This document shows positions 18,991-40,949 of a DNA stretch of 64,000 nucleotides, one piece after another. The translations under genes were made by a program, and so were the position numbers. The stretch comes from Sminthopsis crassicaudata (lineage: Eukaryota): NCBI RefSeq assembly GCF_048593235.1, contig NC_133622.1:251166055-251230054 (forward strand). Reading direction: 5' to 3'. The notes under the pieces are model-generated. The model had not been told where the DNA came from, did no database searches, and was given only the letters and a program-made list of their open reading frames with translations. Positions within the stretch are counted from its first letter, which is position 1. Each line of letters opens with the position of its first letter.

Positions 18991-19333
18991 TGTTAGGATT
19001 CTTACAAGGTGCCAAGTCAGTGGAATTGATGAGCTCATGATTCTCTAATTTACACGAACTTAGTACTTACTACAATTCCACAAGATTCACACCTTTAGAG
19101 AGCAGATATAAGGAGGAGCCTCAGACAGGACTGACTTCCCGGAGATTCACAAGCCAGAGAAGGCAGCCAAGACTCCAGAAGGCCTCTGAGAAAGCTAACC
19201 TGGCCCAGGAAAGACACAAGACTTTGAAGGACACAATAAAGGATTTGGACTTTAATCCCTGGCTGTACTATTTGTGGGGATTACCGGCTGCCTCCAGAAG
19301 CCCCCAAGAAACCTGTTCCCAGAGAACATTACA
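18991..19333 (+). mobile_element. ERV solo LTR (~343 bp)
   Basis: Starts TGTTAGG and ends ...AGAACATTACA (TG...CA), with a TATA-like GATATAAG (~19106) and AATAAA (19235-19240). It appears to interrupt a MIR-like element. No TSD could be read. Confidence 0.7.
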
Positions 19334-19337
19334 TTTT

Positions 19338-19495
19338 TTTTTTATTTTTATTTTTAAAGAATTGTTTTAAAAATATCTGAAACTTTTAATGCATGAGAAG
19401 AATGATATGATTAAATAGTGTTTCATGGTAATACCCCTGAGAAAGAATATAGATTCTTTTTTTTTAATTATAAATTTTTTTGACAGTATATATGT
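19338..19495 (-). mobile_element. Severely 5'-truncated L1 with a 3'-transduced segment and 15-bp TSD
   Basis: TSD AGAACATTACATTTT at 19323-19337 and 19496-19510. The L1 terminus ACATATATACTGTCAAAAAAATTTATAATT-A9 is followed by about 110 nt of non-L1 DNA, AATAAA twice, and a second A-tail. Confidence 0.75.
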
Positions 19496-19619
19496 AGAAC
19501 ATTACATTTTAGAGAAGAACATTAAAGTTGACTTATTGTGTATCTTGGGAACTCAAAAGATCAGGACTTTTCTCATCTGTAAAGTAGGGCAGCTGGACTA
19601 GATGCCCCACTGGGTTCTC

Positions 19620-38893: not shown

Positions 38894-40320
38894 CAGCCAG
38901 CCTTTGCTGGTTTCAGACACTTAACACTTCCTAGCTGTGTGACCCTGGGCAAGTGACCCCAGCCTAAAAAATAAAATAAAATAAAAAAAAGAAATCTAGG
39001 AAAACTGCCCTGTTATCCCTGGAATCAGAAAGTAAAATAGCCATTAAAAGAATCCACTGATCACCCTCTGAAAAAGACCCCCCCCCAAAAAAAAAACTCT
39101 TAAGAAATATTGTAGCTAAATTCCAAAATTATCAGATCAAGGAGAAAAGACTATAAGCAGCCAGAAAGAAACAATTGGAATATAGAAAAGCCAGAAACAG
39201 GATTAGCTAAGACCTAGCAGCTTCCACATTGAAGGATTGAAGAGCCTGGAATCTGATGTTCTGGAATTTGGCAAAGGAGCTTGGACTACAGCTAAAAAAA
39301 TCAACCACCCAGCAAAATTAAGCATTTTCTTTCAGGGGGAATGATGGACATTCAATTAAATTGGGGATTTTCAATCATATCTGATGAAAAGACTAGAGCT
39401 GAACAGAAAATTTGATCTTCAAATAGAAGAGAAATATAAAAAGAAAAAACAACCAATTACTTTTTTAAAAAGGTTAAGTTGTTTACACCCCTTCATGAGA
39501 AAATGATACTTGTAACTTAAGAATTGTATCTTTGTTAGGGTACTTAGAAGGACTATACATAGAGGGTGTGAGCATAAGTTGGCTTTAATGTGATCATAAA
39601 AATTAAGGGGTGGAAAAGGGATTGTGTTGGGAAAAGAGGAAAGGGGAGATAAAAAAGAAGTGAATTACATCATATGAAGAGGCACAAAAGACCTATTACA
39701 GTAGAGGAAAAGAAGGAAGGAAGATTTTGAACCTTAATCTCATCAGATTTGGCTAAAAGAGGGAAGAAATAAAATACATTTCAAGTTTAGTATAGAAATT
39801 AATCTCACTGTATACTGTACATTTTTGGAAATAGGTGGGGAAAAGGAATAAGAAAGGGGGGAGGCTGATTGAAGAGAGGGCAGAAATAGAAGAGGAAAGG
39901 GGTAAAAAAGGAAGGAGAGAGGCTGATAAAAGCGAGGGCAGATTGAGGGAGGTAGGGGTCAAAAGCAAGACACTTGTGAAGGGAAAGGGTGAAAGGAGAG
40001 AGAAACATAAAAATGCGGAAAAATACAGTTAGTAATATTATTAATTATGAATGTGAATGGGATGACCGCTCCACAAAACGGAATTGAATAACAAACTGGA
40101 TTAAAAGCCAGAAACCTGCAATATGTTGTTTACCAAAAATATATGTGAAGCAGAGAGATACATACAGAGTAGACCTAAAACACTGGGAAAGAATTAATAT
40201 ATTATGCTTCAGCTAAAGGGAAGAAACAAAGGTAGTGATCCTAATCTTAGACTAAGCAAAAGCAAAAATAGATCTAATTAAAAGAAATAAGGGAACGACA
40301 TCTTGCTAAAGTATACCATA

Positions 40321-40388
40321 TGTTAGGTTCTTACTAAGTGCTAACTTAGCAACTTAGTACCAACTTAGCACTTAGTAAGAACCTAACA
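40321..40388. mobile_element. 68-bp palindromic mini-element made of two inverted LTR left ends, with a 5-bp TSD
   Basis: Perfect 24-bp terminal inverted repeats (TGTTAGGTTCTTACTAAGTGCTAA ... TTAGCACTTAGTAAGAACCTAACA) flank a 20-nt core. CCATA is present at both 40316-40320 and 40389-40393. Confidence 0.85.
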
Positions 40389-40949
40389 CCATACATAATA
40401 AATCACTATGAATACTTAATATATGCATAGTATAGTATTCAAATTCTTAGAGGAGAAATTAAGTGAGTTGCAGGAAGAAATAGCAAACTACACTAGTGGG
40501 GGATTTCAATCTCTCTCTCTCAGAACTAGATAAATTTAATCACAAAATAAAAGGGAAGTTAAATAGAACTTTAGAAAAGTTAGGTTATCATATGCTTCTG
40601 GAGAAAATTGAATGGGGATATACCTCTTTCTCAGAGGTACATGGCACCTACACAAAAAATGACCTCACAATCAAATGCAAAAAGGCAGACATGTTAAATG
40701 CATCCTTTACAGATCATGATGCAATAAAAATTATGTGTAATAAAGGGTCATGGAAAAATACTCCAAAAATTGATCAGAAACTGAATAATCTAATCCTAAA
40801 GAATGGGTAAGTCAAAGAACAAATCGTAGAAACTATCAATTTCATTCAAGAGAATGACTGTAATGAAACAACATACTAAAACTTATGGGATGCAACCAAA
40901 GCAATTCTTAGGGGAAATTTTATATTGAATTTTAAAGTTTTTGTTTTGT

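What the first reader, a model, noticed from the sequence alone, without database searches (positions are those of the whole stretch)
40316..40393. 68-bp palindromic mini-element: two ERV-LTR left ends joined in inverted orientation, with an integrase-type 5-bp TSD
Seen: the element is TG...CA with perfect 24-bp inverted arms and a 20-nt core, flanked by duplicated CCATA. The surrounding L1 endonuclease sequence reads through colinearly if the element and one CCATA are removed, so this is a true insertion. The arm matches the 5' end of the solo LTR at 18991 (TGTTAGGATTCTTACAAGGTGCCAAGT) at 21 of 24 positions with one gap. On the minus strand the core continues LTR-like sequence (GTTGGTACTAA) and repeats GCTAAG. 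Established: TG...CA ends and 4-6-bp TSDs are retroviral integrase signatures, whereas L1 insertions give long TSDs and polyA tails and normal LTRs have only very short terminal inverted repeats. Inference: this is a MITE-like element with U3 attachment sites at both ends. It could be (a) a fold-back product of aborted plus-strand synthesis that was integrated, (b) concerted integration of two U3 ends followed by collapse of the unstable palindrome, or (c) a non-autonomous family mobilised by ERV integrase. I know of no standard repeat class that describes this, but I could not search.
Basis: partly seen in the sequence, partly recalled or inferred. Interest (0 to 1): 0.8.

Follow-up and report, generated by a model that had tools for sequence, protein, structure and literature searches.

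The report
Retroviral insertions with two left ends
This 68-base palindrome is one of hundreds of insertions in which an envelope-less endogenous retrovirus put two copies of its own left end into the chromosome facing each other, most likely as by-products of its copying step; it is not a self-multiplying mini-transposon, but it opens a large fossil record of how retroviral copying goes wrong.

Summary
In detail: 68 bp (40321-40388), perfect 24-bp arms, CCATA on both sides, inserted into an L1-type endonuclease relic. It is not a MITE. It is the short end of a class of independently formed 'U3-U3' insertions of one env-less, betaretrovirus-like ERV family. I found 22 minis of 37-113 bp with different junctions, 17 with a 6-bp TSD like the family's solo LTRs. 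7 of 40 genome-wide sampled U3 starts and 16 of 84 in a regional sample belong to such elements: about 10% of insertions. U5-U5 minis: 0 against 8; one 2.7-kb U5-U5 element exists. Longer members give the origin away: one arm is a whole LTR plus primer-binding site, sometimes plus a copy of the tRNA-Lys primer with a variable base opposite A58, which is plus-strand strong-stop DNA. Best reading: reverse-transcription template switching makes DNA with two U3 ends and the ERV integrase inserts it. Whether short ones arise by collapse or by host joining of two stumps is open. Ten literature searches found no description.

The parts
40316..40320 (+). left copy of the 5-bp target-site duplication CCATA
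   Evidence: one copy only in paralogous L1-type repeats
40321..40344 (+). short arm: LTR U3 bases 1-24 with the TG attachment end
   Evidence: 5,673 exact copies of this 24-mer in G000, reversed control 0
40345..40353 (-). 9-nt junction insert copied from the arms (7 of 9 letters in one templated piece; by eye two short slips back inside U3 bases 19-28)
   Evidence: slip reading from the sequence itself
40354..40388 (-). long arm: LTR U3 bases 1-35, inverted, giving the CA end
   Evidence: 35 of 35 identical to the 5' end of solo LTR L002
40389..40393 (+). right copy of the target-site duplication
   Evidence: contig of run X1 covers 40364-40473 with 0 differences
40010..40925 (+). decayed L1-type ORF2 endonuclease relic that received the insertion (approximate extent)
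   Evidence: both flanks align at 68-81% to held repeat copies; the L085 copy hits PF03372 at E 5e-14
18991..19530 (+). more distant relative of the LTR family in the window, not the source of the arms (end approximate)
   Evidence: 21 of 24 with one gap; only a 37-bp match to the 42 ordinary copies used as reference

Best explanation
The element is an integrase-made insertion of a reverse-transcription by-product of an env-less betaretrovirus-like ERV. Steps. (1) Shown by sequence: both ends are the U3 attachment end, exact to the base, and the class carries the family's 6-bp TSD, so the ERV integrase handled both ends. (2) Shown in longer members, inferred for this copy: one arm is plus-strand DNA primed at the polypurine tract (strong-stop DNA: LTR, LTR+PBS, or LTR+copy of the tRNA primer). 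(3) Inferred: instead of its normal transfer to the PBS, the growing plus strand switches at a few matching bases onto a plus-sense template (itself or a second plus strand), sometimes after detours through pol, gag, rRNA or other host sequence, and copies it back to U3 base 1, giving a DNA with U3 at both ends. (4) Inferred: very short members such as this one are what is left after the unstable centre of a longer palindrome was lost and rejoined by microhomology-mediated end joining, which left the 9-nt templated insert. It is a dead end: it has no promoter-R-U5, PBS or polypurine tract and was not amplified.
For: 22 minis of 37-113 bp: 14 exact 6-bp TSD, 3 6-bp with one mismatch, 2 exact 5-bp, 3 composite of which 2 have an exact outer 6-bp TSD. 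7 of 40 genome-wide sampled starts, all 7 with exact 6-bp TSD. L090 and L091: whole LTR, then the 18-nt PBS, then jumps to pol/pro pieces in either polarity, then inverted U3. L195, L211, L218, L219: LTR + partial or whole antisense tRNA-Lys copy ... inverted U3 + exact 6-bp TSD; ARAGORN calls tRNA-Lys(ctt) in 8 of 15 such loci; base opposite A58 is T 16, A 10, C 7, G 0 of 33, the pattern recalled for misreading of m1A; m1A58 is the plus-strand stop (PMC8599865, abstract). Arms are closer to each other than the median ordinary copy in 10 of 12 elements with arms of 75 nt or more; L218 arms differ at 13 of 449 against 5.4% or more for other copies. Strong U3 bias: 8 U3-U3 against 0 U5-U5 at 52-82 bp. 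LSU rRNA captured in L045, E 5e-22. Integrase closest to the MMTV intasome chains, E 1e-59.
Against: No long form of this very copy and no orthologous empty site was seen (inconclusive), so steps 2-4 are by analogy. How the second strand of a snap-back is made is not shown. Zero-spacer palindromes centred on a self-complementary 4-mer (L047, L188) cannot come from one intramolecular priming step. L219's arms differ in structure (23 of 353 substitutions, 6 gaps; two other copies are closer); L005 and L161 arms are no closer than the median copy. Only 4 of 33 tRNA-copy loci end in an inverted U3 with exact TSD within the stretch held. One U5-U5 element with an exact 6-bp TSD exists. Templated inserts are a hallmark of host Pol theta (PMC7454005, passages), which fits the first rival equally. 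This copy's TSD is 5 bp, not 6.
Confidence: 0.55

Rival explanations
1. Two separate molecules, each with one U3 end (two strong-stop duplexes or two hairpins), were paired in one intasome and inserted in concert. That cuts the chromosome and leaves a viral stump on each side; host end joining (Pol theta type) trims and joins the stumps, sometimes adding templated or foreign DNA. No single U3-U3 molecule ever existed before integration.
For: Intasomes do insert two synapsed oligonucleotide ends in concert, and 22 bp is enough for MMTV (PMC5329712, passages). A 37-113-bp duplex is too stiff to give both ends to one intasome (established knowledge, recalled). Junctions: 8 of 22 minis have 1-9-nt overlaps, 6 have 1-3 inserted letters, 8 have longer unassigned stretches, several copied from the arms, iterated in L240 and L241. 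L085 holds 280 bp from a unique site on another chromosome with no LTR beside it. L219's arms look like two templates. Zero-spacer palindromes fit.
Against: In L218 and L219 the inverted arm starts a few bases after the very end of the tRNA copy, with a short fold-back in L219 (read from the sequence), which is what a polymerase at the end of its template does; resection would not spare that end. Multi-jump paths through pol and pro in both polarities (L090, L091) and rRNA capture suit a reverse transcriptase inside a particle.
Confidence: 0.3
2. An ordinary solo LTR or provirus was remodelled after integration: a replication fork switched strands, copied U3 backwards, and returned at the LTR's imperfect terminal inverted repeat, replacing the U5 end while keeping the TSD.
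For: The U3 start and the U5 end agree at 9 of 11 positions as inverted repeats (read). The TSD would be kept. One U5-U5 element exists. The U3 start is locally unstable: a 37-bp tandem copy is present or absent in duplicates of one insertion.
Against: Predicts U5-U5 about as often as U3-U3: seen 0 against 8 at 52-82 bp, and 1 element among the first 100 listed U5 ends. Cannot supply tRNA copies with a variable base at A58, rRNA, or jumps at the PBS end. No U3/U5 hybrid ends or inverted flank overshoot among the 22 minis (the search patterns demanded exact U3 ends, so this is a weak test).
Confidence: 0.08
3. A non-autonomous MITE-like family that is itself copied and moved, by the ERV integrase or by a DNA transposase.
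For: Terminal inverted repeats and TSDs. Three elements (L044, L045, L046) share one 64-bp layout.
Against: One full-length match to the 68-mer, itself (that search scores only the best candidates). Lengths and junctions differ among the 22 minis. The shared 64-bp junction sits on a 4-9-nt self-complementary spot, its three copies differ in sequence, and two lie at the 3' end of composite proviral structures, so it is a recurring junction, not a lineage.
Confidence: 0.02
4. Assembly or library artefact (fold-back chimera).
For: Palindromes are prone to it. No independent record formally bridges the element.
Against: Clean TSD and colinear empty-site alignment; a contig of run X1 is identical across the right junction, 25 letters inside the element, below the tool's 31-letter rule, and X1 may be the assembly's source; arms of long members have diverged by 0-8%.
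Confidence: 0.02

Closest known systems
Aberrant HIV-1 and ASLV proviruses (PMC5041404; passages and Discussion read)
   Same: Viral end joined to further viral DNA in either orientation or to host DNA from other chromosomes, at short homologies.
   Different: There integrase inserts one end and host enzymes the other, with duplications usually much larger than the normal TSD, and wild-type controls gave none (0 of 85 in PBMCs). Here both ends are exact U3 ends with the normal 6-bp TSD, at about 10% of insertions.
Ty1 composite insertions from paused replication intermediates; integrase use of any TG...CA fragment (PMC2939329; passages)
   Same: Erroneous priming and template switching from paused reverse-transcription intermediates; integrase accepts non-standard substrates and leaves a normal TSD.
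   Different: Forced in yeast with transformed DNA; the passages seen do not describe natural elements with two U3 ends.
Marsupial endogenous betaretrovirus MEBrv 3, env-less, IAP-like (PMC11334065; passages and section 10)
   Same: Parent family here is gag-pol with no env ORF seen, beta-like integrase, very abundant.
   Different: Match is by description only; copies seen are about 6 kb against 7.3 kb. The paper's main text has no occurrence of 'invert' or 'primer binding'.
MITEs and fold-back DNA transposons (recalled)
   Same: Short, non-coding, terminal inverted repeats, TSD.
   Different: Not amplified, no uniform size or core, no transposase partner; ends and TSD are those of a retroviral integrase.
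AAV snap-back genomes and retroviral autointegration inversions (recalled, no call)
   Same: Polymerase switches onto the opposite polarity and yields a molecule with one terminus duplicated in inverted form.
   Different: Those are episomal or circular; here the products were integrated in the germ line and fixed.

Membership tests
MITE / non-autonomous DNA transposon | terminal inverted repeats and a TSD | tested here: met
MITE / non-autonomous DNA transposon | many copies of uniform length and sequence | tested here: not met
   one full-length match; 22 minis of 37-113 bp with different junctions
MITE / non-autonomous DNA transposon | autonomous partner with the same inverted repeats at both ends and a transposase | tested here: not met
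   the arm is the U3 start of gag-pol proviruses whose other end is U5; no genome-wide transposase search was made
Solo LTR | one U3-R-U5 in a single polarity between TSDs | tested here: not met
   U3 at both ends, no U5
TRIM-type small LTR retrotransposon | two direct LTRs with PBS and polypurine tract between | tested here: not met
   inverted arms, neither signal in the 68 bp
Retroviral integrase product | TG...CA ends exact to the base on both sides | tested here: met
   (the mini searches demanded this; the flank-selected sample demanded only one end)
Retroviral integrase product | TSD of the family's own length (6 bp) | tested here: inconclusive
   met for the class (17 of 19 stand-alone minis); this copy and L231 have 5 bp
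One-end aberrant provirus (PMC5041404 type) | one end host-joined, with long duplication or deletion of flank | tested here: not met
   short exact TSDs on both sides
MEBrv 3 (parent ERV) | beta-like gag-pro-pol, no env ORF | tested here: met
   Gag_p24, RVT_1, rve, IN_DBD_C in L056; no env-sized ORF in L056 or L076 (both copies are broken); the putative pro piece gave no Pfam hit
MEBrv 3 (parent ERV) | RT phylogeny or identity with the published representatives | not tested
   representative sequences not held; supplements not read
Dfam/Repbase LTR entry | match to a named consensus | not testable with these tools
   no repeat library on hand

The most novel reading that the evidence does not exclude
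An env-less mammalian ERV routinely integrates unfinished plus-strand products through two U3 ends, as snap-backs or as pairs of half-molecules sealed by host end joining. About a tenth of its germ-line insertions are U3-U3 palindromes and a further large set carries a copy of the modified tRNA primer, so the genome holds a countable fossil record of reverse-transcription intermediates, of m1A58 read-through in the germ line and of intasome end-pairing errors, and the same class may be hidden as 'two adjacent LTR fragments' in other genomes.
Probability: 0.45. Interest if true: 0.8.

Novelty: new variant of a known kind. Interest (0 to 1): 0.62.

Why it matters
Textbook retroviral integration pairs one U3 and one U5 end of a finished DNA, and short LTR insertions are read as solo LTRs left by recombination. 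Here roughly one in ten insertions of an abundant family has two U3 ends with a normal TSD, which makes end pairing and the fate of strong-stop DNA in vivo testable by counting. It also changes how LTR copy numbers and solo-LTR ratios are read, supplies a steady source of new hairpins of 37 bp to over 1 kb, and shows integrase-mediated capture of tRNA, rRNA and other host sequence. The single 68-bp copy has no shown function.

Tried and rejected
Orthologous empty site: four runs laid at 85% likeness were swamped by L1 paralogues; no 73-bp skip among the 15 joints shown, 502 not shown; runs X7 and X10 (two other organisms) have no depth over 40327-40384, which is no proof of absence. 'Overshoot into the polypurine tract' for L005 and L045: dropped, in L045 the three letters are part of a degenerate TSD; L005's outer TSD was not found. 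LTR read-through as source of the L085 insert: rejected, no LTR beside the source locus; inserts of L019, L085 and L161 are not from their own flanks. Short U3 stubs of 44-74 nt in L102, L105, L163, L173: no inverted U3 or matching TSD within about 10 kb, unexplained. L209: 5' TSD not found. Rfam did not see the partial tRNA in L107; the genome-wide tRNA family search added nothing; miRNA-family hits on L045's palindrome are far below gathering score. Window LTR at 18991 as source: rejected. One region (L215) was fetched at a wrong coordinate and dropped before counting. Earlier-findings look-ups by sequence, words and place were blank. Literature searches (listings only unless cited) showed no description of natural U3-U3 ERV insertions; the library lacks most subscription papers, including older retrovirology.

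Full report
Observation. The element lies at 40321-40388: 68 bp, TG...CA, perfect 24-bp inverted arms, a 20-nt core, CCATA on both sides. The arm has no other match in the window with up to 3 mismatches, and none is expected by chance. Both flanks align to held repeat copies, one of which is a Pfam endonuclease domain at E 5e-14; in 3 distinct loci (4 of 7 rows) the flanks join with one copy of the 5-bp repeat and no insert, the other 3 rows gave offsets -1, +6, -21. So it is a true insertion. Read on the minus strand it is LTR bases 1-35, a 9-nt insert copied from the arms, and LTR bases 24-1.

The parent family. The 24-mer has 5,673 exact copies in the genome, reversed control 0. It is the U3 start of an LTR of about 320-520 bp whose solo copies mostly carry 6-bp TSDs. 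Two proviruses of about 6 kb show gag, RT and integrase domains and no env-sized ORF; the integrase's best solved relatives are chains 7usf and 3jca, E 1e-59 or better, 3jca being the MMTV intasome (PMC5329712, passages). This fits the description of the env-less, IAP-like MEBrv 3 (PMC11334065, passages and section 10); identity was not tested by sequence.

The element is one of a class. Three gapped searches demanding exact ends gave 7 elements of 37-53 bp (12-nt ends), 8 of 56-78 bp including this one (15-nt ends) and 7 of 84-113 bp. Of these 22, 14 have an exact 6-bp TSD, 3 a 6-bp TSD with one mismatch, 2 an exact 5-bp TSD (this one and L231), and 3 are the 3' end of composite structures, two of them with an exact outer 6-bp TSD and one with 4 of 6. 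Two more minis with a mismatch in an arm turned up otherwise (L003; L188), so 22 is a floor.

Frequency. Sample 1: all 42 starts with one arbitrary 3-letter flank, genome-wide; 2 segmental duplicates dropped; 7 of 40 belong to U3-U3 elements of 202-1,068 bp, all with an exact 6-bp TSD (6, L107); Wilson interval 9-32%. Sample 2: the first 100 listed starts, 87 distinct, 3 internal tandem copies dropped; 16 of 84 starts, 12 distinct elements. One element is in both samples. Since each element offers two starts, about 10% of insertions are U3-U3, some 500-1,000 elements (my extrapolation). Only about 1.5 kb beyond each start was examined for most loci, so longer members are missed.

Control. A degenerate U5-end 20-mer has 3,520 copies. 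U5-U5 minis of 52-82 bp: 0. Of 30 U5-anchored loci, many of them segmental duplicates, all have a U3 upstream in normal polarity; one, with its neighbour, forms a U5-U5 element of 2,694 bp with an exact 6-bp TSD (L112/L113). I saw no other outward-facing pair within 3 kb among the 100 listed positions. The bias is strong, not absolute, and the U5 motif does not cover the family's second U5-like end.

What the long members show. The long arm often stops at a landmark of plus-strand strong-stop DNA. In L059, L009 and L046 it is a whole LTR plus the first bases of the PBS; in L090 and L091 a whole LTR plus the 18-nt PBS, followed by pol or pro pieces in either polarity and then inverted U3. L107 runs on past the PBS into a copy of the primer tRNA. 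A search with that stretch gave 184 candidates, 40 scored; I examined 33 of the 40 (6 not fetched, 1 fetched at a wrong coordinate). An LTR start was found upstream in 29 of 33; ARAGORN calls an antisense tRNA-Lys(ctt) right after the LTR in 8 of the 15 loci given to it. The base opposite tRNA position 58 is T in 16, A in 10, C in 7, G in 0 (the query carries A, which favours A, and two pairs look like duplicates), the mix I recall for reverse transcription across m1A; m1A58 is the plus-strand stop (PMC8599865, abstract). Four of the 33 (L195, L211, L218, L219) end in an inverted U3 with an exact 6-bp TSD, L221 with one mismatch; many of these loci belong to a sister LTR subfamily. A tRNA copy with a variable base at the modified position cannot come from rearranging chromosomal DNA. 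L045 holds LSU rRNA; L085 holds 280 bp from a unique site on another chromosome, 89% alike, with no LTR beside it.

Arms and junctions. In 10 of 12 elements with arms of 75 nt or more the arms are closer to each other than to the median of 31-42 ordinary copies, in 3 of 12 closer than to any; L005 and L161 are exceptions. L218 fits self-copying (13 of 449), L219 does not (23 of 353, 6 gaps). Among the 22 minis, 8 junctions have 1-9-nt overlaps, 6 have 1-3 added letters, 8 have longer stretches not assigned to an arm, partly templated inserts and partly subfamily variants missing from my reference set. L047 and L188 are zero-spacer palindromes centred on self-complementary 4-mers.

Mechanism. 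Shown: both ends are integrase ends; the arms come from one family and usually one source; long arms are plus-strand products. Inferred: a template switch onto a plus-sense strand supplies the second U3 end, and short members are finished by microhomology-mediated joining. I put 0.55 on one molecule formed by reverse transcriptase and later trimmed, 0.30 on two U3-ended molecules inserted together and joined by the host, 0.08 on remodelling of a solo LTR after integration, 0.02 each on a mobile MITE-like family and on artefact. The first two agree that this is an integrated by-product of reverse transcription. A duplex of 37-113 bp is too short to bend both ends into one intasome (recalled), so the minis need collapse, two molecules, or hairpin isomers. 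Templated inserts are a Pol theta hallmark (PMC7454005, passages) but do not tell collapse from stump joining. The orthologous site could not be resolved.

Comparison and novelty. Closest are aberrant HIV/ASLV proviruses, where only one end is integrase-made and flank duplications are usually long (PMC5041404, passages and Discussion), and Ty1 composites from paused intermediates (PMC2939329, passages). Searches listed nothing that describes natural U3-U3 ERV insertions; two devil and dasyurid ERV papers have no occurrence of 'invert'. The library lacks most subscription papers, no supplements were read, and Dfam/Repbase could not be checked, so prior notice is possible. An unchecked scan note reports a single head-to-head LTR insertion in a fungus; I did not test it. 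Verdict: real, not a MITE, a new and surprisingly frequent variant of aberrant retroviral integration; interest 0.62.

Noticed in passing
L195-L229 (hits): A large set of LTRs is followed directly by an antisense copy of the tRNA-Lys(CTT) primer, up to full length, with T/A/C opposite position 58, then jumps into gag, pol or host sequence. It looks like a fossil record of m1A58 read-through and may deserve its own census.
   Followed up: partly
L063, L077, L093, L097, L134, L144, L171 and others: The family has two primer-binding sites about 90 nt apart, each preceded by a CA end; solo LTRs with exact 6-bp TSDs end at either. The Lys isoacceptor for the second site is recalled, not tested.
   Followed up: partly
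L112/L113 = G000:C1:1658904-1661597: A 2,694-bp element with U5 ends on both sides, internal inversion and exact 6-bp TSD.
   Followed up: partly
L082, L084, L092, L093, L094, L104, L107, L139, L140, L145, L149: 11 of the 40 flank-selected insertions, with LTRs of different lengths, sit at what looks like the same position of one repeat (similar flanks): a possible integration hot spot.
   Followed up: no
L069:9304-9642: Composite insertion: U3 start, about 220 nt of LSU rRNA 5' region, polypurine tract, 64-bp U3-U3 palindrome.
   Followed up: partly
L102, L105, L163, L173: U3 stubs of 44-74 nt joined to non-LTR DNA with no partner end or TSD within about 10 kb; unexplained, possibly one-ended events.
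   Followed up: partly
L030/L038, L021/L034, L056: A 37-bp tandem duplication at the U3 start is present or absent in duplicates of one insertion and between the two LTRs of one provirus.
   Followed up: no
window 43623-63999: A 20-kb array of an 18-bp unit, about 1,117 copies, running off the window.
   Followed up: no
window 18991-19530: Distant relative of the LTR family interrupted near its 3' end by a short poly(T)-led insertion with a duplicated flank (read).
   Followed up: no
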